Virus record (IMG/VR): IMGVR_UViG_3300015050_000913
Location: 5,385-69,384 of that record
Reading direction: 5' to 3' (one strand)
Origin: a virus
Lineage: Duplodnaviria; Caudoviricetes
DNA length: 64,000 nt
Shown here: positions 1-8,188 of the stretch, piece after piece
Layout of the letters: each line of letters starts with the position of its first letter
Numbering within the stretch: the first letter of the stretch is position 1
Notes under the pieces: generated by a model
Database searches by the model: none
The model's input: the letters and a program-made list of their open reading frames with translations, nothing else
Told to the model about the DNA's origin: nothing
Made by a program: the position numbers and the translations under genes

Positions 1-45
1 GAACTAAACGAAATTAATTAACCACCATTTAAACCAAAAAACAAA

Positions 46-474
46 ATGAAAGACAAGTTAAGAACCCCATTACTTGATTCACTTCAAAAACAACCAATTA
101 TGACAAAGAAAAAAATGTTCCGAATAGAACTAACACGCAGCAATACACTTGCACAGGATATTTGCATTATGGCATCCCTTTCAAATGGAAGTGGTAAGTA
201 CATATCCTTAACCGATATGGAAAGCATTGTAAAGGTGGAAATAATAAGATACCCTTCCCTTAACGAAGGCATATCTGTAACAGTAACAGACAATGTACTG
301 ACCATAGACAGAAAGGATGAAAACATACTGACCATTACAGAAGTGGAAATAATGCAAATGGACAAACCACAGTTATCCAACGAAGAAGCAAAAGCTATCA
401 TAGGAGTACCAACCATTGACCAATATGCAGGTACGGGCATTGCAGATGAAAGCAACAAGGAATTATTGAATTAG
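46..474 (+). CDS. Hypothetical protein; last ORF before the first attC-like site
   Basis: 142-aa ORF with A-rich leader. The stop TAG (472-474) abuts the GCGTATAAC inverse core. Confidence 0.7.
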   Translation: MKDKLRTPLLDSLQKQPIMTKKKMFRIELTRSNTLAQDICIMASLSNGSGKYISLTDMESIVKVEIIRYPSLNEGISVTVTDNVLTIDRKDENILTITEVEIMQMDKPQLSNEEAKAIIGVPTIDQYAGTGIADESNKELLN

Positions 475-601
475 CGTATAACGCCTGCGGCTTGGCGATG
501 TTGCCGAAACTGATGCTCAAAAAAGAACAAAAGTTGAAGTTACAATGTCAAGCCAAATTGAAAAACTAAACGGCAATATTGCCAAACCGCTTGTTAGCGG
601 C
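474..601 (+). mobile_element. attC-like recombination site 1
   Basis: GCGTATAAC (474-482) ... GTTAGCGGC (593-601). Inner arms 487-506 and 571-590 are complementary at 17/20. Confidence 0.8.
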
Positions 602-619
602 GGATACGGTAAATTATAA
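545..619 (+). CDS. Putative 24-aa leader peptide encoded inside attC-like site 1 (MSSQIEKLNGNIAKPLVSGGYGKL)
   Basis: ATG at 545 in the hairpin loop. It reads through the right arm and stops 3 nt before the ATG at 623. Confidence 0.35.
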   Translation: MSSQIEKLNGNIAKPLVSGGYGKL

Positions 620-622
620 AAT

Positions 623-1117
623 ATGTCACTGATAGCAACAAATTGGGAAAACGATATGCTGGCAGAACCGGAAGATAAAGTAATTGAGTTTATGCAAAAG
701 TATAATTCAGATTACGAGCTAAAATTATTATCTGGCTTACGTCATAGAGATATGGAAGATATAAGGGATAGCCTTAGAAATTCAAGAGTAATAATTATGC
801 AGCCCTCTTTATTGGAGAAAGAACAGGTTGTTAATATGGTTAAAAATATCAGCCACCCTATTCATGTAAATCTAAATGGAGCAACCCGTAATTATGACAT
901 AAGAGATTTTATTTTTCTTTCATCACATCCTTTTGAAGATTTGTGTCAAATTAAAGAATGGTGTCGTGGCGTTAAAGATGGATTTGATACAGGCGATGCT
1001 TTAACTAAAATACTGACAAATTGTGAAATACATTTTTACGGTTTTGCAGGGGAACATTATGAAATGAAAAGAATTGGATATTTCAGTGGCGATATTTACG
1101 CTGCCCGATATAAGTAG
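623..1117 (+). CDS. Hypothetical protein, cassette 1 cargo
   Basis: 164-aa ORF bracketed by GTTAGCGGC (593-601) and GCCGCTAAC (1130-1138). Confidence 0.8.
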   Translation: MSLIATNWENDMLAEPEDKVIEFMQKYNSDYELKLLSGLRHRDMEDIRDSLRNSRVIIMQPSLLEKEQVVNMVKNISHPIHVNLNGATRNYDIRDFIFLSSHPFEDLCQIKEWCRGVKDGFDTGDALTKILTNCEIHFYGFAGEHYEMKRIGYFSGDIYAARYK

Positions 1118-1129
1118 GGTGTAGTATTT

Positions 1130-1329
1130 GCCGCTAACGAACAGGGCTTGGCGATGGTTTGGAATAGATATTCGTCAGCCGATAACAAACGATTAATTAA
1201 TAACTAAAAGTTGAAAATATGAGTAAAAGTAAATTAGGGAGATGGGTTCCGTTACAGGAGCTTGGTATTGTACCAGAAGTTGAAGATACTTCCGTCAACC
1301 AAACTGTTGCCAAACCTAATGTTATAAGC
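1130..1329 (+). mobile_element. attC-like recombination site 2
   Basis: GCCGCTAAC (1130-1138) ... GTTATAAGC (1321-1329). Arms 1144-1162 and 1299-1317 pair at 14/19 plus 4 G:T. Confidence 0.8.
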
Positions 1330-1557
1330 AGTGTTGCAAGCACTATCGCTGATGGTAGCATTGTTTGGATAAAGGACAATATGCAAGTTCATTGCGGTCA
1401 AGTTCGTAAAGTTTATGCTGATGATAAGCAAGCCCTTGTTATGAACTTCGATAAATGGTCTGATTGGTTGGTAGACTTCGATAAGATTATAAGAGTTGGG
1501 GTGTCGTATTACACAGACGATTATAGGCACTACAGTTCACAGCAACATTGCTTATAA
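1219..1557 (+). CDS. Hypothetical protein, cassette 2 cargo; its N-terminus is encoded inside attC-like site 2
   Basis: 112-aa ORF. The stop TAA (1555-1557) lies inside the inverse core GCTTATAAC. Confidence 0.75.
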   Translation: MSKSKLGRWVPLQELGIVPEVEDTSVNQTVAKPNVISSVASTIADGSIVWIKDNMQVHCGQVRKVYADDKQALVMNFDKWSDWLVDFDKIIRVGVSYYTDDYRHYSSQQHCL

Positions 1558-1684
1558 CGGTTGGCATATTGCGAAGTGGTGGCGGCTTTGCAATATCGCT
1601 CAAACAACTGGTGATGCTGGGCTTTGCTAATAGTCGAAGTTTTGAACGTCAAGCTACCATTTTGCAAATGCCGTTGTTGGTGGC
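1550..1684 (+). mobile_element. attC-like recombination site 3
   Basis: GCTTATAAC (1550-1558) ... GTTGGTGGC (1676-1684). Arms 1563-1583 and 1653-1672 pair with one extrahelical A (1568). Confidence 0.8.
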
Positions 1685-1725
1685 TGTATGGTAAGATTAA
1701 TTATTAACTGTCAAAATAAAAAACG

Positions 1726-2169
1726 ATGAAAATTTTAAAGGATTATGTACACTTTTTTTTAGGCTGCCAATTTCAACTTTTTTGGAGAAATGATGATGGC
1801 ACTACTGAATATGAAAGGGATGGCGAATTGGTAACTATAAGGCCGCAAGATAAAGATACACACGGCTTAGTTTTTAGATGTAAAACAAAGGGCGGTAATT
1901 TTATAGAAATGGCTTATCCTTTTGAAGATGTAAAACCAATATTTAAGCCGCTTTCTGATTATAAAGAAATTAGCAGCGAAGGCTTGAATGATATTAATTG
2001 CGACCTGTCAAATCAAATGGAGATTGTTGACCTGGCGAATAAGCAACTACATTATTCATCAGCAACATTTGAAGCCGTAAGGCTTTGTTTAGAAAACAGA
2101 GTTGATGTTTTTAATCTGATTGATGAAGGGCTTGCTGTCAACGCCACCGAATTGAAGGCTGCAATATAG
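1726..2169 (+). CDS. Hypothetical phage protein, cassette 3 cargo
   Basis: 147-aa ORF bracketed by GTTGGTGGC (1676-1684) and GCCACCAAC (2169-2177). Confidence 0.8.
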   Translation: MKILKDYVHFFLGCQFQLFWRNDDGTTEYERDGELVTIRPQDKDTHGLVFRCKTKGGNFIEMAYPFEDVKPIFKPLSDYKEISSEGLNDINCDLSNQMEIVDLANKQLHYSSATFEAVRLCLENRVDVFNLIDEGLAVNATELKAAI

Positions 2170-2200
2170 CCACCAACTCTATGATTTACGCAATTTATAA
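2169..2200 (-). mobile_element. attI-like terminal half-site
   Basis: The core GCCACCAAC is not followed by an attC hairpin. The minus strand reads TTATAAATTGCGTAAATCATAGAG|TTGGTGGC. The role is inferred. Confidence 0.45.
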
Positions 2201-2217
2201 TAACTAATTGAATTACA

Positions 2218-2505
2218 ATGGAATTACACGAATTAACCATAGACCATACACGACAATACATGGTCGATGTACACGGTAAAAAATATCCGATAAAGCAACA
2301 GCGTGGCAGATATTACATCCAACATTCAAAAGGTCAGTTAACAGTAACAAGTAAGGTTAATGAATATACTGATTGGTGTTTTGATTATGTATTTGGTGGT
2401 TTATTTCAGCGTTATCCATGCCCTGTCATTGATTATTTTATTTATAGGCATAGACTTGGTAACAGAGTAAGTGCAATAGAATATAAAAAACAGTTTCTTA
2501 AATAA
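2218..2505 (+). CDS. Hypothetical protein
   Basis: 95-aa ORF followed by a terminator. Confidence 0.65.
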   Translation: MELHELTIDHTRQYMVDVHGKKYPIKQQRGRYYIQHSKGQLTVTSKVNEYTDWCFDYVFGGLFQRYPCPVIDYFIYRHRLGNRVSAIEYKKQFLK

Positions 2506-2538
2506 ATAAGGTGGTTTATAGTTTTGGTTTTAAAGGTT

Positions 2539-2567
2539 AACAGGGTGGTTTGGCTGCCCTGTTTTTT
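2539..2567 (+). terminator. Intrinsic terminator between convergent gene blocks
   Basis: AACAGGGTGG-TTTG-GCTGCCCTGTT hairpin followed by a T-tract. Confidence 0.65.
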
Positions 2568-2572
2568 ATTTA

Positions 2573-2881
2573 TCACACTTTTGTTTTTTCGTACTCATAT
2601 AATCTTTGGGCAAATTCTTCCACAAAATCTTCATTGTACTTTAACTTATGACGTTTCATGCTATCCAAAATCATATGGGTAAGTTCATGGTAAAAGGTCT
2701 TTTCCTTTTCAGGTTTTTTTAATTTTACGCCGTCATACCTGTTACACAATGTGATTATCTTTTCTGTAAAATCAGCCTCCCCGTAAAATTTATTATCCTG
2801 ACAGTAATCATCATCAATAATAACCTTAATCAGTTTTCCTGACAGTTTAAAGGACTCTGGTATGATGATGCTGCCGTTCAC
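2573..2881 (-). CDS. Small HExxH zinc-metallopeptidase-like protein
   Basis: FYHELTHMILD motif. Confidence 0.6.
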   Translation of the reverse strand: MNGSIIIPESFKLSGKLIKVIIDDDYCQDNKFYGEADFTEKIITLCNRYDGVKLKKPEKEKTFYHELTHMILDSMKRHKLKYNEDFVEEFAQRLYEYEKTKV

Positions 2882-3105
2882 TTCTTTGGGTATTTATTCC
2901 GTGTTACATCAACCGCCTTTGTGATTCTAATACTGTTTTCCTTCCTTATTTTTTTACTTAGTTTCTCCAGTTCCCGTAACTGCTGTGACGGGGTAAGCCC
3001 CGACAGTACTTCAAGTATTTTATCCTGAATACTCATATTGAGTAATTTGTAAGTGTTTATTGAGTAATTTGTTTTTTTCTGATTGGCTGATGTGAGGTCT
3101 TTCAT
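2878..3105 (-). CDS. Hypothetical protein
   Basis: 75-aa ORF overlapping both neighbours by 1-4 nt. Confidence 0.55.
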   Translation of the reverse strand: MKDLTSANQKKTNYSINTYKLLNMSIQDKILEVLSGLTPSQQLRELEKLSKKIRKENSIRITKAVDVTRNKYPKK

Positions 3106-4166
3106 TACTTAGGTGTTGATAGTAGCAAATGACGTTTCTGTTTTATGTTTATACTACTTAATCGTTTCCTACCAGTAGCACCACAATTATCACAACGTAA
3201 AAGTACAAATTTATTGGCTGTCGTTACATATTCCTTACCCTCGTCTTTTAATTCATTACTTCCACAAGTAGGGCATCTTTCCTGACCTTCATCAAGTAAA
3301 AATAGCCCACAGTTAGGATGTGGCTTTATCCAGCTTCTTATTCGCAAATATGTTTCTTCCAATATCTTAACGTCTGTTATGTTGTATGCTAACATTTTTT
3401 TCAGGCTTTCTTCATTACCATTGTAGCAACCCTCCCAAAGTTTAAAACCCCCTGTATCTTGTTTTCGTTCTAAATTCAATAGTTTGTTAACGTAATCAAG
3501 TTTATTGCTTGTAAAGCCAAACTGCCTCCTGATATGCTTTAGCGTGTCAATGCTTTGGTAAGGTAATGGAGGGTTAAGTCTGTGTTGTATAAAACGGCTG
3601 TTAAGTTTTGGTATATCAAATTTTTCCCCGTTGTGAGCAATTACAATATCTGCTTCATTCATCAACGCCCAAATACTTTTAATTATCCGACTATCATCCT
3701 GCTTTAATGCTTCTTTCCCTGTTAGCCTTGCTGAATAAACTTTGTCCTCAAATAACCATTTAGCAGCCCAAGTAAAACAAAACCAATCAGCCTGTATCAT
3801 GTCTATACCCACGTTCTGTTGCCATATACCCCACACATAGGCTTTTATTGGGGCAGTTTCAATATCAAGTACCAATATTTTTGCTTCCGTATTAATTACC
3901 TCTTTGAATGGTCGGTAATTAGATGTATCGTATGTGGTTGCCACATACATTGATTTGTCCTTATTATTTTTTCGTGATATTTCACCATTAGTTCCAAGTA
4001 TATTATTTATATACGCCCGTCTAATGTGTTCAGGAGATTTTAGGGCAGGGAATTTTTTGTGGTTTTCAATAAATATTTTTTTTGCAAGCGTTAATTTTTT
4101 TAATGCAGGATAGTACTGTTTACAGTATTCCTCGCACAATTCCCTTTCGGGAGATTTTTTACGCAT
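3105..4166 (-). CDS. RNase H-like (DnaQ/PolB-type) 3'-5' exonuclease with C-terminal Zn ribbon
   Basis: VLDIET, AHNGEKFDIP, SIDTL and YNITDV motifs; CPTCG...CDNCG. Confidence 0.75.
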   Translation of the reverse strand: MRKKSPERELCEEYCKQYYPALKKLTLAKKIFIENHKKFPALKSPEHIRRAYINNILGTNGEISRKNNKDKSMYVATTYDTSNYRPFKEVINTEAKILVLDIETAPIKAYVWGIWQQNVGIDMIQADWFCFTWAAKWLFEDKVYSARLTGKEALKQDDSRIIKSIWALMNEADIVIAHNGEKFDIPKLNSRFIQHRLNPPLPYQSIDTLKHIRRQFGFTSNKLDYVNKLLNLERKQDTGGFKLWEGCYNGNEESLKKMLAYNITDVKILEETYLRIRSWIKPHPNCGLFLLDEGQERCPTCGSNELKDEGKEYVTTANKFVLLRCDNCGATGRKRLSSINIKQKRHLLLSTPK

Positions 4167-4174
4167 ATATTTTA

Positions 4175-4639
4175 TTAAGTTGGTGACTTATCGGAAATCG
4201 TAACCCAGCAATCTCCTAATTTCTGCCGTTCTAAAACTAAGGTATTTAAGTCATTCATGGCAGATTTATCGTTTACCAATCTGTTACTATTCTCCCCTGC
4301 AACATCATGGTAGCTGATAATTGGGCATCCTGCGGAAGATAATTCAGTAGTTCCATTGTGTACCCTTATACCCTCAAAGTCAGGTACGCCAAATATGCCC
4401 GTTAATAGCCTTTTAAACCTTCCTGACCATGTGGATAGTACTTTATACCTTCCGTATGGTATGGCTGTTTTACCGTACACCTTTACAGATGACTTCCATT
4501 CCCCCGGCTTTGCCCTTACCTTGTCCTCTATAACGTGGCTAAACCACTTCCATTTACCGTCAGGCTGTTGTATGTACCAATTACCTTCGGTTGAATTTTC
4601 ATTCAATATTTTACGCCATAGCCAAAATTCTGTGTTCAT
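4175..4639 (-). CDS. DUF5675-like protein, candidate endolysin
   Basis: TAIPYGRYKV, GIRVHNG and SAGCPII motifs (His...Cys pair); located in the lysis cassette. Confidence 0.65.
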   Translation of the reverse strand: MNTEFWLWRKILNENSTEGNWYIQQPDGKWKWFSHVIEDKVRAKPGEWKSSVKVYGKTAIPYGRYKVLSTWSGRFKRLLTGIFGVPDFEGIRVHNGTTELSSAGCPIISYHDVAGENSNRLVNDKSAMNDLNTLVLERQKLGDCWVTISDKSPT

Positions 4640-4648
4640 ATTACGATT

Positions 4649-5089
4649 TTATTTAAGAAATATATAAGCTGCAATACCTAATCCTGCTGTACCGATTATT
4701 GCTATTGTGGTTTTTCTTTTTTGTCTTTTTAGTAACTTGTTTTGGTGCTTCATTTCTTTGGTGGCTAAATCTCTTTGCTCTATTAAATTTGCCACTTCTG
4801 ATTTGTATGTTTCCACTATCCTTGCTTGTGCTGTGTCCTTTTGTCCATGTATGGAAATGATGCTATCCTTTATGGATATACGTTGGTTCAGGAAAGTTAT
4901 CTTTTCATTCAGTAACTCTACTCTTTGCTCACATATTTTTCCTTTCTCAATTAACTTAGCTGCATCTCTTAACTTAGCGTTTGGTACTAAGGTTGCATCA
5001 ATAGTCGTTGGTTGGCTGTGGCTCAAGTGAGTTAAAGTAGTTAAGCAAACCAACATCATCAAGCGTATTAATTTCTTTTGCTTTTTCAT
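4649..5089 (-). CDS. Spanin-like exported coiled-coil protein with C-terminal TM
   Basis: Signal peptide ending HS|Q, coiled coil, C-terminal hydrophobic helix; next to the endolysin candidate. Confidence 0.55.
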   Translation of the reverse strand: MKKQKKLIRLMMLVCLTTLTHLSHSQPTTIDATLVPNAKLRDAAKLIEKGKICEQRVELLNEKITFLNQRISIKDSIISIHGQKDTAQARIVETYKSEVANLIEQRDLATKEMKHQNKLLKRQKRKTTIAIIGTAGLGIAAYIFLK

Positions 5090-5399
5090 TGTATTTTTTT
5101 GGTAGGCTGTTTATCCTGTTATCAATGAGTAAATTATTTATGGCAATTAAACTATCCTTTATGTGCAAAGTGTATATCTGTACATCTAATTCCTTTTCTC
5201 TTACCTCCCACAATTGCCTTAACTTAATTATTTCCTGTCTTGCATCCTCTTTTAATTTCATTTCCAACTTTACCAAGTCAAGTGTATGGTCTTTCTTTAA
5301 CCCTTGTATGAACAAATAAATAACCAAAAAGGAAAGTAAGAATATACCAACTATTGAAAGCTGATACTTATATTTTTTAATTAAATTAAATACCTTCAT
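4998..5399 (-). CDS. Inner-membrane spanin-like protein
   Basis: N-terminal TM plus coiled coil; overlaps the downstream spanin-like gene. Confidence 0.55.
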   Translation of the reverse strand: MKVFNLIKKYKYQLSIVGIFLLSFLVIYLFIQGLKKDHTLDLVKLEMKLKEDARQEIIKLRQLWEVREKELDVQIYTLHIKDSLIAINNLLIDNRINSLPKKYNEKAKEINTLDDVGLLNYFNSLEPQPTNDY

Positions 5400-5412
5400 A
5401 ATTAATTATTAA

Positions 5413-5505
5413 TTACCCAACAATCAATGCCACTACAATAATAAGCAGCAATGCTAACCATACATACTTTACTTGCTTTGGGAGATTTGGTTGCTGTGTT
5501 ATCAT
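5413..5505 (-). CDS. 30-aa single-TM micropeptide (MITQQPNLPKQVKYVWLALLLIIVVALIVG)
   Basis: Translated by hand. ATGA overlap with the upstream micro-ORF. Confidence 0.55.
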   Translation of the reverse strand: MITQQPNLPKQVKYVWLALLLIIVVALIVG

Positions 5506-5588
5506 GGCTTAAAAATTAAATAAAGAATAACCACTACCAATGCTATGATAAGGTTGTTCTTTGTGAATATTTTATTGAAGTCTATCAT
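5502..5588 (-). CDS. 28-aa single-TM micropeptide (MIDFNKIFTKNNLIIALVVVILYLIFKP)
   Basis: Translated by hand. ATGA overlaps at both ends. Confidence 0.55.
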   Translation of the reverse strand: MIDFNKIFTKNNLIIALVVVILYLIFKP

Positions 5589-5845
5589 GGCTTTGGTGCT
5601 TCATCTTTGGTTGTATTGCCACCCCTTACAATGCTTACTATCTGTGCCACCGTTGCTACACCTGACATTATAAGTACAAATATCATAGTACTGTTGATTA
5701 ATGCCTGTCTTGCTGTATCGGTACTTGCTCTTGTTATGGCAAATATAATACCCCATGCAAGTACTCCTGCAATAGAAATAGCAATCCATCTCTTAGATGA
5801 ACCTTGTCCGTTTTCGCTGAAAAACCCTTTAATTAATTCCCACAT
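5585..5845 (-). CDS. Putative holin (2 TM)
   Basis: 86 aa, two hydrophobic helices, charged C-terminal tail, lysis context. Confidence 0.6.
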   Translation of the reverse strand: MWELIKGFFSENGQGSSKRWIAISIAGVLAWGIIFAITRASTDTARQALINSTMIFVLIMSGVATVAQIVSIVRGGNTTKDEAPKP

Positions 5846-5857
5846 AATTAATAATTT

Positions 5858-6451
5858 TTATTGTTTTAAAAATACCTTACCTGTTATATTTACGATGTTA
5901 CCTTCATCATCCCTTCTTATGTGTGCTATGTATGTGGCAGGGATTTCTTTGCCATGTCCTCCATACATAATTATATAATCCCTTGTTATTTCGTTGTCTG
6001 TTTCTATGGCTTGTTCAAATACTTCTCTTTCGTGGTCAGCGTTCTTTATGAAGTTAAGCCATCCGTAACCGTACATTTGATTGGGTGTACTTCCAAACAG
6101 TTTACACAATGCACCATTTGCCCTTATGCACTTGCCTTCTGAATCATTCTCAAACATTGCCGCATCATTCAAATCTATCATTGCCGTTTGCCTGTTACCA
6201 ATAATATCTACTTTTTTAATTAACCCTGACTGTCCATCCCGAATTTGCTTTACTAAATCTTTGGTACTACTGCCTCCATTAAACTCTAATTGTTCGGCAG
6301 CATTTTCCATTTTCTTAACCCATCCTTTGATTGGCACAAAGGCATGAAAGTAAAACTTCTTCCCAATAATAAACAGCCCCCAAATGCCAACCAATAACCC
6401 ACCAATATCCTTCCAATTATCAATGACTGCTTTTAATATTTTGTTTTCCAT
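5858..6451 (-). CDS. Membrane-anchored PAS-domain protein
   Basis: N-terminal TM and NGGSSTKD linker. PAS signatures FENDSEGKCIRANGALCKLFG, GYGWLNFI and RDDEGNIVNITG. Confidence 0.7.
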   Translation of the reverse strand: MENKILKAVIDNWKDIGGLLVGIWGLFIIGKKFYFHAFVPIKGWVKKMENAAEQLEFNGGSSTKDLVKQIRDGQSGLIKKVDIIGNRQTAMIDLNDAAMFENDSEGKCIRANGALCKLFGSTPNQMYGYGWLNFIKNADHEREVFEQAIETDNEITRDYIIMYGGHGKEIPATYIAHIRRDDEGNIVNITGKVFLKQ

Positions 6452-6668
6452 TTTTACGCCTTATAGATAATATTGCTAATATAATAAATAAAAAGGAATA
6501 TTGTGCAATCGTTTTAAAATATACTATCATACCCACTATACTTGCAGCAATGATAAATACTTTCATGTTGGCTAACATTGATTTGGTTTGTGCTGCCCTA
6601 TCAATGTTTAACATCAAAGCAGTGCATAATAGAACGAATGTAATTACCTCAATTATTAGCTGTACCAT
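6420..6668 (-). CDS. Small multi-TM membrane protein (about 3 TM)
   Basis: Three hydrophobic segments and a basic C-terminus. Confidence 0.6.
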   Translation of the reverse strand: MVQLIIEVITFVLLCTALMLNIDRAAQTKSMLANMKVFIIAASIVGMIVYFKTIAQYSFLFIILAILSIRRKNGKQNIKSSH

Positions 6669-7014
6669 TTTTTATTTTTTTTGTTTCTATATATCTACTT
6701 ATCAGTAATGAATTTGCACCGATAAAAGTAAAGGTCAAAATGTTTACGTTAGTCCAATTTGAGGGGTCTCCTGCAAATTCCATATATAAAAACCCACCAC
6801 CAAAAGAAAATATTGCAGTACTGATGTAATGCAAAAACCTGCTGCTATTACAAAGAACAAGGCACAATCCCAAGTTCATCATCATAAAATAAACCGATAC
6901 ATAGTACAAGTTTATTATCTTAATTTGCTGCCAAAAGAAGTACCCAAATAGATGAAATACAAGGCTTATAAAAATAAGTGCTGATTGTATATTTTCTACT
7001 TTCTGCTTTGTCAT
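6649..7014 (-). CDS. Membrane protein (about 4 TM)
   Basis: Four hydrophobic segments. Confidence 0.65.
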   Translation of the reverse strand: MTKQKVENIQSALIFISLVFHLFGYFFWQQIKIINLYYVSVYFMMMNLGLCLVLCNSSRFLHYISTAIFSFGGGFLYMEFAGDPSNWTNVNILTFTFIGANSLLISRYIETKKIKNGTANN

Positions 7015-7202
7015 TGTCTGTCTTTTGGTCTGCCAACTCTACATTCACCTTCACCCGTTGCTGTTAAATAAGTGGCAATAGCTGCTGCATCAGGAAAAGA
7101 TAAGTTGCTTATAGCATCCTCAATACCTGACCATTCAACAGGACTTTCAGTTTTAAGCCATACATCTGTTCCATCTTTAAATACTCCGTAATTGTTTTGC
7201 AT
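7011..7202 (-). CDS. Small hypothetical protein
   Basis: 63-aa ORF with ATGA overlap to the downstream membrane gene. Confidence 0.6.
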   Translation of the reverse strand: MQNNYGVFKDGTDVWLKTESPVEWSGIEDAISNLSFPDAAAIATYLTATGEGECRVGRPKDRQ

Positions 7203-7258
7203 ATTTTTAGTTTTTTTTAGTTAATAATTTCCCTGTCTGTTACTGGTTCCATTGGTTG

Positions 7259-8188
7259 TTAATAAATTAAATAATACCTATTTACATTAGTTTCAATATC
7301 TTCCCTGTTTGGTGTAAAATCTGTACCCCACATTATAATCTCTTGAATATATCCAACTAAATACGAAGTGCCTCCCGCCGGGGCATTGTTCATCCCTATT
7401 CTGAAAGATGAAGCAACACCTGATAATGCAGTGTTTGTTGTCATCGACTTACTTGAACTAAGTGAATTATTAATATACTGATACCATGTGCCTGTTGTAG
7501 ATGGTTTTGTAACAAACTGTAAATTTTGTAATTGCAGCCTGTTTATACGCCCCAAAGCATCCCCATATTGACTAACACCTATTGCATCGCCTCCAAAAGC
7601 CGCATCATCTCCATAAGCTAAAAATACTGCACTTCCTGTTGATGCTTGCCCGTAATTAATTATTATTCTATATTGATTTAATGCTAATGTTGCTTGTGTG
7701 TTATAAGTAACAGTAACATAAGTAGCCACCCCTGTTGGAAGCCCATCATCAACCGTGCCTAAATTATCCCCTCCATCAAAGTACGTTGTAACTTTGTTAT
7801 TTAATCTTTCAACAGTACCCGAATTTATAATTCGTGGTTGTGCTGTTGTTGTAGCCTGTGTTACATCTCTATTGTTACCTGATTGGTCATACCAAGTAAC
7901 AACAAAACCATTATTAGCCCCGACAAATGTTTTCATTGAAGTTGTATCCAAATCGCCACAAGTTCCGATAAAACCGATGTCCTGTTCTGTATTATCACTT
8001 GAACGCCTAACCCTTATTGCTGAACCTGTATAATCACCGTCTAATTTTCTTAATGAATAAGCTGCCGAGGCACTTGTATAAGTGTCAAGTATTAACCTGC
8101 ACCCGTTATTCCCAATCAGTTTAAACATTGGTGATTGAGCCGATGCAAATACAGGTAATAAGAATAATATTAATAGTAGTTTACGCAT
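7259..8188 (-). CDS. Exported concanavalin-A/LamG-like lectin-fold protein (fibre/adhesin-like)
   Basis: Signal peptide MRKLLLILFLLPVFASA|Q. Motifs AAYSLRKL, IRVRRSSDN and VTWYDQSGN, seen in phage lectin-like proteins. Confidence 0.65.
   Translation of the reverse strand: MRKLLLILFLLPVFASAQSPMFKLIGNNGCRLILDTYTSASAAYSLRKLDGDYTGSAIRVRRSSDNTEQDIGFIGTCGDLDTTSMKTFVGANNGFVVTWYDQSGNNRDVTQATTTAQPRIINSGTVERLNNKVTTYFDGGDNLGTVDDGLPTGVATYVTVTYNTQATLALNQYRIIINYGQASTGSAVFLAYGDDAAFGGDAIGVSQYGDALGRINRLQLQNLQFVTKPSTTGTWYQYINNSLSSSKSMTTNTALSGVASSFRIGMNNAPAGGTSYLVGYIQEIIMWGTDFTPNREDIETNVNRYYLIY

What the first reader, a model, noticed from the sequence alone, without database searches (positions are those of the whole stretch)
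2164..2200. Array ends in an attI-like half-site at the downstream end, so cassette genes point toward the insertion site
Seen in sequence: the last core GCCACCAAC (partner of 1676-1684) is followed by TCTATGATTTACGCAATTTATAA, which has no complementary arm downstream and lacks the conserved hairpin arm. On the minus strand it reads TTATAAATTGCGTAAATCATAGAG|TTGGTGGC, the form expected of a non-palindromic primary insertion site. Inference: new cassettes enter here, crossing over at the AAC side. That is the reverse of canonical integrons, where attI and Pc lie upstream of the cassette ORFs. The alternative is a truncated fourth attC.
Basis: partly seen in the sequence, partly recalled or inferred. 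Interest (0 to 1): 0.7.

Follow-up and report, generated by a model that had tools for sequence, protein, structure and literature searches.

The report
Phage integron-like array's docking site
A 69-kb Bacteroidota-type phage carries three swappable gene cassettes, and the row ends in a conserved integron-style docking site, but every gene faces that site, the mirror image of bacterial integrons, and the phage has no recombinase of its own.

Summary
GCCACCAAC (2169-2177) is the exact inverse of GTTGGTGGC (1676-1684), and no hairpin follows it. A covariance model built from 95 related sites finds three sites in the whole phage (472-603, 1138-1331, 1548-1686, all + strand) and nothing after 2177.

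- **Relatives:** ten loci carrying the downstream gene (2218-2505) keep the sequence 3' of AAC but have unrelated sequence 5' of it. Two backbones 99.4% identical downstream diverge about at the AAC.
- **Site family:** I counted at least 313 sites in 98 viral contigs, and it also occurs in cultured Flavobacterium phages and Bacteroidota chromosomes.
- **Array ends:** arrays end on the same strand as ..TTGCnnnTAAC, six bases, then ATATACGCAA. The window reads TCTATG-ATTTACGCAA, one mismatch.
- **Recombinase:** in six viral contigs a short Xer-like recombinase gene, cut short in one, starts 43-52 nt after that AAC. In two bacterial arrays it lies just beyond.
- **Polarity:** phage cassette genes face the site (30 of 33). 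Bacterial ones face away (11 of 11).

The window's phage encodes no tyrosine recombinase, so any activity here must come in trans; that step is inferred. Phage attC clusters are already published (Qi 2023), but I found neither the docking site nor the mirror polarity in print. Earlier notes of this scan report the same system on other DNA.

The parts
474..482 (+). Distal core GCGTATAAC. It is the far end of the array and overlaps the stop codon of ORF 46-474. Proposed remnant of the original R box of the docking site.
   Evidence: No GTTATACGC partner lies upstream on the + strand (15 matches at <=2 mismatches against 20 expected by chance). It is 7 of 9 complementary to the L box at 2183-2191. 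It equals the family's common core TTGCGTATAAC.
472..603 (+). attC-like hairpin site 1 (cores 474-482 and 593-601).
   Evidence: R1 scores 81.4 bits. The 20-bp stem is shown.
482..1137 (+). Cassette A, the oldest by the integron model: hairpin 1 plus ORF 623-1117 (164 aa, no family hit), ending in ..GCCGCTAA.
   Evidence: Core pair GTTAGCGGC 593-601 / GCCGCTAAC 1130-1138. No Pfam or PHROG hit.
1130..1331 (+). attC-like hairpin site 2. It is long (about 200 nt), and its loop holds the ATG at 1219.
   Evidence: R1 scores 41.5 bits, E 4e-7, and this site was not in the training set. Stem.
1138..1557 (+). Cassette B: hairpin 2 plus ORF 1219-1557 (112 aa; an in-frame alternative ATG lies at 1381).
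   Evidence: Inverted arms 1321-1337 / 1542-1558, 16 of 17 complementary.
1548..1686 (+). attC-like hairpin site 3 (cores 1550-1558 and 1676-1684).
   Evidence: R1 scores 29.1 bits. Sequence.
1558..2176 (+). Cassette C, nearest the docking site and so the newest by the integron model: hairpin 3 plus ORF 1726-2169 (147 aa; weak hit of its C-terminus to phrog_10841).
   Evidence: Exact core pair 1676-1684 / 2169-2177. PHROG hit.
2169..2193 (+). attI-like docking site: R box GCCACCAA|C (2169-2177, supplied by cassette C), 6-nt spacer TCTATG (2178-2183), L box ATTTACGCAA (2184-2193). The inferred crossover lies between A2176 and C2177.
   Evidence: One mismatch to the consensus ATATACGCAA at the fixed offset +7..+16. 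At most one mismatch is seen in 9 of 47 array ends against 2 of 2276 random AAC sites. Conserved in relatives. The same structure precedes recombinase genes.
2218..2505 (+). Conserved flanking gene ('gene X', 95 aa), function unknown. It marks the backbone side of the site.
   Evidence: 55 homologues, alignment A1. AlphaFold model with pLDDT 87 has no PDB fold match.

Best explanation
Positions 2169-2193 are the primary insertion site (attI-type) of an integron-like cassette platform carried by this phage.

Read on the + strand, the site has three parts:
- an R box whose left part belongs to the last cassette (GCCACCAA|C);
- a 6-nt spacer;
- an L box (ATTTACGCAA), which is an inverted, imperfect copy of the family's R-box consensus TTGCnnnTAAC.

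Each cassette is one hairpin followed by one gene and an inverse core. Cassettes enter by a crossover at AA|C, so the newest cassette (1558-2176) lies next to the site, and the old R box (GCGTATAAC, 474-482) has been pushed to the far end.

Relative to the site, the + strand corresponds to the integron 'bottom' strand. The phage genes are nevertheless coded on it. They therefore point toward the site, and each hairpin sits in front of its gene, the mirror image of bacterial integrons, including Bacteroidota chromosomal arrays built from the same site family.

**Shown:** the anatomy, the conservation of the site, its position next to recombinases in relatives, the breakpoints at AAC, and the polarity.

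**Inferred:** the chemistry (which strand is cut, and where), and that a short Xer-like recombinase from a co-infecting phage or the host acts here in trans. This complete genome encodes none.
For: - **Anatomy.** Three hairpin sites and three exact inverse-core pairs; no fourth hairpin.
- **Relatives with gene X.** The core is variable, then AAC, then conserved sequence. L008 and L009 are 99.4% identical from the AAC core onward and unrelated before it.
- **Family size.** At least 313 sites in 98 viral loci, one strand per locus. Among the bacterial contigs that matched the search pattern, all the true sites lay in Bacteroidota.
- **Bacterial reference.** A Chitinophagaceae array of at least 32 sites ends GCCGATAAC|GTGTGT-ATTAGCGAAT, then a tyrosine recombinase follows about 140 nt on.
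- **Viral contigs with a recombinase.** The arrays of L044, L061, L078, L093 and L115 each end in an exact lone inverse core, and the recombinase ATG lies 43-52 nt after the AAC; L131 has a 68-aa remnant at 51 nt.
- **Consensus of 47 ends.** T at +8 in 98%. At most 3 mismatches to ATATACGCAA in 19 of 47, against 28 of 2276 for background. The base after AAC is G in 226 of 235 hairpin sites but T or A at array ends.
- **Breakpoints of shared units.** 9 of 12 ends lie on the AAC side and 0 of 12 lie after a downstream hairpin. 6 of 12 starts lie at the AAC before the upstream hairpin.
- **Polarity.** Viral cassettes 30 sense, 3 antisense; bacterial 0 and 11. GenBank annotation of cultured phage mumin9-1 agrees.
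Against: - This CheckV-complete 69-kb genome has no tyrosine recombinase, so nothing shows that the site is used in this phage.
- No empty site was found in any relative.
- Three of 12 shared units start at the GTT side, and two arrays break the core-pairing rule (L024, L016). Exchange is therefore not confined to AA|C, and homologous recombination between hairpins also contributes.
- Folding energy favours the + strand only weakly: 117 of 169 viral sites and 36 of 61 bacterial sites, by about 1 kcal/mol.
- The associated recombinases lack the IntI-specific region. Transferring integron chemistry to them is an assumption.
- Conservation of 2194-2217 may simply reflect the start region of gene X.
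Confidence: 0.75

Rival explanations
1. Relic site. The site is a true attI homologue inherited from an ancestor phage that had the recombinase, but it is no longer used. The array now changes only by homologous recombination or whole-array replacement.
For: - The genome has no recombinase.
- L131 carries a 68-aa remnant of the recombinase after its site, which shows that loss happens.
- L008 and L009 differ in the whole array, not by one added cassette.
- Mosaic hairpins and core swaps are seen.
Against: - The L box is one mismatch from the consensus, and all three core pairs are exact or nearly so. That argues against long decay.
- Most viral arrays lack an adjacent recombinase yet keep the site.
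- Recombinases of the same family exist in likely hosts and in other phages, so supply in trans is possible.
Confidence: 0.15
2. Modular shuffling without a site-specific recombinase. The hairpins are conserved intergenic repeats (possibly RNA or regulatory elements) that promote homologous recombination, as the promoter/stem-loop repeats of T4-type phages do. On this view the lone AAC is only the edge of the last module.
For: - Hairpin loops are partly conserved across contigs.
- The hairpins lie on the sense strand of the phage genes and hold start codons.
- Some breakpoints lie inside hairpins or at GTT.
Against: - Cassette-specific inverse cores that differ from unit to unit are not explained by homologous recombination.
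- The same sites fill bacterial arrays on the antisense strand of the genes, so a role in mRNA cannot be general.
- Array ends share a non-repeat consensus at fixed spacing and abut recombinase genes.
Confidence: 0.07
3. Truncated fourth attC. A deletion or insertion removed the hairpin that once followed GCCACCAAC.
For: A core with no hairpin is what a truncation would leave.
Against: - The same structure recurs in ten gene-X loci with unrelated last cassettes and in about 47 other array ends.
- The base after AAC is not the G found in 96% of hairpin sites.
- The following 16 nt match a consensus that is absent from hairpin sites.
- No hairpin remnant is detected by R1.
Confidence: 0.03

Closest known systems
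Classical integrons, especially sedentary chromosomal integrons (IntI, attI, attC cassette arrays)
   Same: - One-gene cassettes bounded by imperfect-palindrome sites with AAC/GTT cores.
- The core after each hairpin is the inverse of the core after the gene.
- Hairpin sites are homogeneous within the family, as VCRs are.
- One end of the array is a non-palindromic site with an R box, a spacer of about 6 nt and an inverted L box. This is the geometry I recall for attI1 (from memory, not tested here).
- In relatives, a recombinase gene lies next to that site.
   Different: - The genes lie on the strand that corresponds to the bottom strand, so they face the site, and the hairpin precedes its gene.
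- This phage has no integrase.
- The linked recombinases are 266-284 aa and Xer-like, and lack about 43 residues of VchIntIA 181-243.
- No upstream promoter-plus-attI arrangement is present.
CALINs (attC clusters lacking an integrase) in virulent phages, Qi et al. 2023, PMC9892861
   Same: attC-type sites between small genes in lytic phages without an integrase. One example infects a Bacteroidota host (Polaribacter phage P12002L), and the cassettes often encode DNA methyltransferases.
   Different: That paper does not describe an attI-type end in the virulent-phage CALINs or a systematic mirror polarity. For P12002L it notes only 'divergent directions'. Whether P12002L carries this site family was not tested here.
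Integrons with inverted integrase (Treponema denticola / Chlorobium type; from memory)
   Same: The Bacteroidota chromosomal arrays found here have the recombinase co-directional with the cassettes and converging on the array end.
   Different: In those integrons the cassettes still point away from attI. In the phage arrays both the genes and the recombinase are flipped relative to the sites.
Xer/dif and archaeal XerA recombinases
   Same: They are the best sequence relatives of the linked recombinases: PDB 4a8e and 5hxy, and NF040815 at 160-211 bits, below its cut-off of 220.
   Different: Xer resolves dimers at a single dif site. Here the enzyme sits beside arrays of up to dozens of hairpin-bounded cassettes.

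Membership tests
Integron (functional platform) | attC-type imperfect palindromes with RYYYAAC / GTTRRRY-like cores bounding cassettes | tested here: met
   Three sites, each with an AAC..GTT frame and a 17-20-bp stem. R1 hits of 81, 41.5 and 29 bits.
Integron (functional platform) | Cassette-specific inverse cores: the core at the start of a cassette is complementary to the core at its end | tested here: met
   593-601/1130-1138 and 1676-1684/2169-2177 match 9 of 9; 1321-1337/1542-1558 matches 16 of 17.
Integron (functional platform) | attI: a non-palindromic primary site at one end of the array, with the crossover in its R box and an inverted L box | tested here: met
   By comparison only. 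The lone AAC, 6-nt spacer and ATTTACGCAA are one mismatch from the consensus of 47 ends. The structure is conserved in relatives and lies next to recombinases elsewhere.
Integron (functional platform) | intI gene adjacent to attI | tested here: not met
   No PF00589 match in six frames of the complete 69,384-bp record. tblastn with the Chitinophagaceae recombinase finds nothing in G000.
Integron (functional platform) | The integrase carries the IntI-specific additional domain (I2 region) | tested here: not met
   Tested on relatives' enzymes. L093 aligns to VchIntIA 16-180 and 244-318 only, with 20 residues in place of 63. TIGR02249 scores 94-183 bits against a cut-off of 265, in two stretches.
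Integron (functional platform) | Cassette genes point away from attI and are read from a promoter at the attI end | tested here: not met
   The window's ORFs all run toward 2177. Viral arrays are 30 sense to 3 antisense on the hairpin strand, bacterial arrays 0 to 11.
Integron (functional platform) | Recombinase-mediated insertion or excision at the core, by single-strand exchange of the folded bottom strand | not testable with these tools
   Indirect evidence only: breakpoints of shared units fall at AAC.
CALIN (cluster of attC sites lacking an integrase) | At least two attC sites in an array with no integrase nearby | tested here: met
   Three sites within 1.2 kb and no integrase in the genome. 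IntegronFinder's own attC model could not be run.
T4-type promoter/stem-loop mobile regulatory cassettes (from memory) | Near-identical repeats flank the genes and exchange is by homology, with no unit-specific inverse cores and no dedicated end site | tested here: not met
   Cores differ between units and pair in inverse across each gene. The end site has its own consensus.

The most novel reading that the evidence does not exclude
Bacteroidota phages run a mirror-image integron system of their own.

- The cassettes carry the hairpin in front of the gene, where it can supply the start codon and 5' leader.
- They dock at a conserved R-spacer-L site at the downstream end of an early operon.
- They are moved by short Xer-like recombinases that lack the IntI-specific domain.
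- Those enzymes can act in trans, so integrase-less phages such as this one still trade cassettes.

Because the polarity is opposite to that of host chromosomal arrays built from the same sites, phage and host would keep separate cassette pools while sharing the machinery.
Probability: 0.45. Interest if true: 0.85.

Novelty: new variant of a known kind. Interest (0 to 1): 0.74.

Why it matters
Integrons are the textbook system for capturing genes one cassette at a time. They are thought of as bacterial, dependent on IntI, and polar: the promoter and attI lie upstream and the genes point away.

This array shows the same site logic used in phages with the polarity reversed. Relatives link it to recombinases that lack the domain held to be essential for reading folded attC sites.

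If the site is active, three things follow:
- It gives a concrete mechanism for the rapid turnover of phage accessory genes. In relatives these are often DNA methyltransferases, which are anti-restriction functions.
- It raises the question of how an enzyme without the I2 region selects a strand.
- It is testable, because cultured Flavobacterium phages (Muminvirus and relatives) carry arrays of 11-12 such sites.

It also suggests that integron surveys that require a canonical IntI undercount Bacteroidota arrays. The only complete Bacteroidetes integron reported by IntegronFinder 2.0 is in Salinibacter.

Tried and rejected
The contigs of most of the 55 gene-X homologues could not be read, and no empty site could be sought there.
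- **Single-protein scans** of viral contigs with ORF 46-474 and gene X found nothing.
- **blastn of 1-8000 against phage records** gave only a 123-nt hit to Bacteroides phage DAC17.
- **Strand test by G.T wobbles.** My early hand count in the window favoured the + strand but did not generalise. G.T pairs are equal on both strands, and the hairpin strand is more stable by only about 1 kcal/mol (117 of 169 viral sites, 36 of 61 bacterial). Not used as evidence.
- **Upstream array ends.** My hairpin detector misses diverged hairpins, so its 44 'lone GTT' calls are mostly false.
- **Far-end core versus L box.** Testing whether the far-end core is the inverse of the near-end L box gave no signal in 8 loci (5.5 against 5.48 mismatches). 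It also fails in phage mumin9-1. The 7-of-9 match in the window is only suggestive.
- **A 12-nt shift of the junction in L008/L009.** Dropped once the consensus showed that those loci fit AAC-N6-ATATGTGAAA.
- **Gene X as a recombinase or DNA-binding partner.** A confident model (pLDDT 87) has no PDB match.
- **Public sequencing runs.**
  - Only small shares (0.06-0.13) were found, and contigs only.
  - Two joints had short sides (500->1196; 1684->2169).
  - One contig ended at 2177, and another began at 2175.
  - This is too weak to count as evidence.
- **nhmmer** proved less sensitive than the covariance model, so counts from my scripts are lower bounds.
- **tblastn of the window's cassette ORFs** found no copies in the fetched loci.

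Full report
**Setting.** The window is bases 5385-69384 of a 69,384-bp IMG/VR virus record with inverted terminal repeats, rated 100% complete by CheckV.
- The first 2.5 kb of the window continues a run of small + strand early genes.
- From 2573 a minus-strand block begins, and it includes a DNA polymerase exonuclease subunit.
- A six-frame search with PF00589 finds no tyrosine recombinase anywhere in the record, while the same search hits all 14 control genomes.

**The observation.**
- GCCACCAAC lies at 2169-2177, and its exact inverse GTTGGTGGC lies at 1676-1684.
- The text that follows (TCTATGATTTACGCAATTTATAA, 2178-2200) is as quoted.
- Two further pairs have the same form: GTTAGCGGC 593-601 with GCCGCTAAC 1130-1138, and 1321-1337 with 1542-1558 at 16 of 17.
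- Between the pairs lie three imperfect palindromes framed by AAC and GTT.
- A covariance model (R1) built from 95 related sites, run without filters over the window and the upstream 5.4 kb, gives exactly three significant hits: 472-603, 1138-1331 and 1548-1686, all on the + strand. The second was not in the training set. Nothing overlaps 2169-2300 even at E<=10.
- The stretch after 2177 does not fold beyond chance (z -1.1, against -2.8 for site 1).

**Relatives of the flanking gene.** The ORF at 2218-2505 ('gene X') has 55 homologues. Eleven loci that encode it were fetched.
- In all ten distinct loci the 40-60 nt before the start codon are conserved back to an AAC (TAC in L005/L006). Upstream of that the sequences are unrelated.
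- L008 and L009 are 99.4% identical over 678 nt starting about at the AAC core, and share nothing else.
- Wherever enough upstream sequence is held, it contains chained hairpin sites: L002, L005, L008, L009 and L010.

So the lone AAC next to gene X is a conserved array end, not a one-off truncation.

**The site family.**
- *Viral contigs.* A pattern taken from the arms (GGCTTTGYG..AAAACC..GTT) matched at least 119 viral contigs. Match lengths cluster at 113-118, which shows a real family. R1 then finds 313 sites in 98 viral loci, always on one strand per locus, in arrays of up to about 18 sites.
- *Cultured phages.* Seventeen records of cultured Flavobacterium phages carry the family. Phage mumin9-1 has 12 sites, and all annotated genes between them lie on the same strand as the sites.
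- *Bacterial genomes.* Among genome contigs, the true matches are all Bacteroidota.
- *Strand convention.* I call the strand that reads TTGCnnnTAAC-G-spacer-GGCTTTGYG...CAAAACC-spacer-GTTA the S strand. Its marks are a conserved C.A mismatch in the stem and a 5' spacer longer than the 3' spacer.

**Anchoring the polarity.**
- *Chitinophagaceae MAG.* It holds at least 32 sites over 52 kb, all with S on one strand.
  - The array ends ..TTGCCGATAAC|GTGTGT-ATTAGCGAAT with no hairpin.
  - About 140 nt further on lies the stop codon of a 325-aa tyrosine recombinase gene.
- *Viral contigs.* tblastn with that protein finds homologues in L044, L061, L078, L093 and L115.
  - In each, the array ends on the S strand in a lone core that is the exact inverse of the preceding GTT core.
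  - The recombinase ATG follows 43-52 nt later.
  - L131 has a 68-aa remnant in the same place.
- *Common side.* In bacteria and phages alike, the recombinase and the hairpin-less end lie at the 3' end of S. Read away from that end, the order is L box, spacer, G|TT core. That is the order at attI in classical integrons, so S corresponds to the integron bottom strand.

**A consensus for the end site.**
- Extending each array core by core gave 73 candidate ends. After dropping those that start with the G typical of hairpin sites (G follows AAC in 226 of 235 sites), 47 remain, 43 of them viral.
- Their consensus after AAC is TACTAG-ATATACGCAA, with T at +8 in 98%.
- Nineteen of 47 lie within 3 mismatches of ATATACGCAA at the fixed offset, against 28 of 2276 random AAC sites. 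Nine of 47 lie within 1 mismatch, against 2 of 2276.
- The window (TCTATG-ATTTACGCAA) has one mismatch.
- The genes after the site are diverse, so the motif belongs to the site and not to a neighbouring gene.
- The L box is an inverted copy of the R-box consensus TTGCnnnTAAC.
- In the window, the far-end core GCGTATAAC (474-482) is 7 of 9 complementary to the L box. That fits its being the original R box pushed outward, but this relation did not hold in other loci.

**Where units break.** I examined 12 segments at least 200 nt long and at least 80% identical shared between different viral arrays.
- Nine end at the AAC side. Five of those end exactly after AAC, where one partner continues into a hairpin and the other into an end site.
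- None runs through a downstream hairpin.
- Six start at the AAC before the upstream hairpin, and three start at GTT.

The gene therefore travels with the hairpin in front of it, as a crossover at AA|C predicts. The GTT-side starts and two broken core pairs (L024, L016) show that other exchanges also occur.

**Polarity of the genes.**
- Within single cassettes bounded by chained cores, viral arrays have the long ORF on S in 30 cases and on the opposite strand in 3. Bacterial arrays have 0 and 11.
- In the window all cassette ORFs are on S and run toward 2177.
- In phage arrays that have a recombinase, the order is genes, site, recombinase, all in one direction.
- In the two bacterial cases examined (the Chitinophagaceae array and L224), the order is recombinase, site, genes, again all in one direction.

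Relative to the sites, the coding content is flipped in phages.

**The enzymes.**
- The linked recombinases are 266-284 aa (325 aa in the bacterium).
- Their best NCBIfam match is the XerA/integron-integrase model NF040815, below its cut-off. They hit the integron-integrase model TIGR02249 only in two stretches.
- Against VchIntIA (PDB 2a3v), L093 aligns to residues 16-180 and 244-318, with 20 residues where IntI has 63.
- From memory, the missing stretch holds the IntI-specific helix that contacts the extrahelical bases.

So this system works like an integron but fails two membership tests: the enzyme type and the gene polarity. The window fails a third, because it has no enzyme at all.

**Literature.**
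- Qi et al. 2023 (PMC9892861) report attC clusters without an integrase in 17 phages, including virulent ones, and show that IntI1 can use some of them.
- They do not describe an attI-type end in those phages or a mirror polarity.
- IntegronFinder 2.0 found a single complete integron in Bacteroidetes.
- Two further full-text searches found no description of this family.
- Within this scan, earlier notes on other genomes describe the same system, including the inverted polarity. I reached my reading before seeing them, and they agree with it.

**Verdict.** The finding is right in both observation and interpretation. What is still inferred is the chemistry, and whether the site is still used in a phage that must borrow its recombinase.

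Noticed in passing
L252-L254 (G001:C6:1-60000), recombinase at L254:12591-13568 (-): A Chitinophagaceae MAG carries at least 32 hairpin sites of this family over 52 kb. The array ends beside a 325-aa Xer-like recombinase that scores below the integron-integrase cut-offs. It looks like a large chromosomal integron-like array of a kind that IntI-based surveys may miss.
   Followed up: partly
window 1219-1557; L008:881-1318; L009:309 onward; L255:5061-5903: Cassette ORFs often start inside the loop of the preceding hairpin, or at an ATG that overlaps the GTT core (..ATGTTA..). GenBank annotates the methyltransferase of phage mumin9-1 as starting inside a hairpin site.
   Followed up: no
L001:1266-1330, 2317-2365, 3318-3383, 3877-3926; window 1-45; inverted copy at window 2510-2545: A phage-specific intergenic motif (..TAACCACC..TAAACC..) precedes many early + strand genes. 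It recurs inverted just after gene X, where the two transcription directions meet.
   Followed up: no
L131:2963-3169 (-): A 68-aa ORF 51 nt after an array end matches the N-terminus of the phage recombinases. It appears to be a truncated recombinase, a likely intermediate toward integrase-less arrays like the window's.
   Followed up: partly
L024:498-847 vs L114:192-548; L016:7599-8028 vs L076:5149-5579: In two arrays the 4-nt variable part of a core has been swapped without its flanks, which breaks the inverse-core rule. This would fit exchange across a short overlap region rather than a single fixed cut.
   Followed up: no
alignment A1 (gene X homologues P0001-P0055): Gene X is itself mosaic. 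Some homologues share only the N-terminal half (for example P0030, P0033) and others only the C-terminal half (P0027, P0037).
   Followed up: no
L008:27-821, 1493-2248; L009:372-990; L044:1100-1690; L078:9660-10540: Cassettes in related arrays often read as DNA methyltransferases (DPPY and Dcm-type motifs seen by eye; GenBank product names in mumin9-1). That is consistent with anti-restriction cargo.
   Followed up: no
window 2175-2177: In public freshwater metagenome assemblies, one 605-nt contig covering 1674-2177 ends exactly at 2177 and a 151-nt contig begins exactly at 2175. Assembly graphs branching at the junction would produce this, but the evidence is weak.
   Followed up: partly
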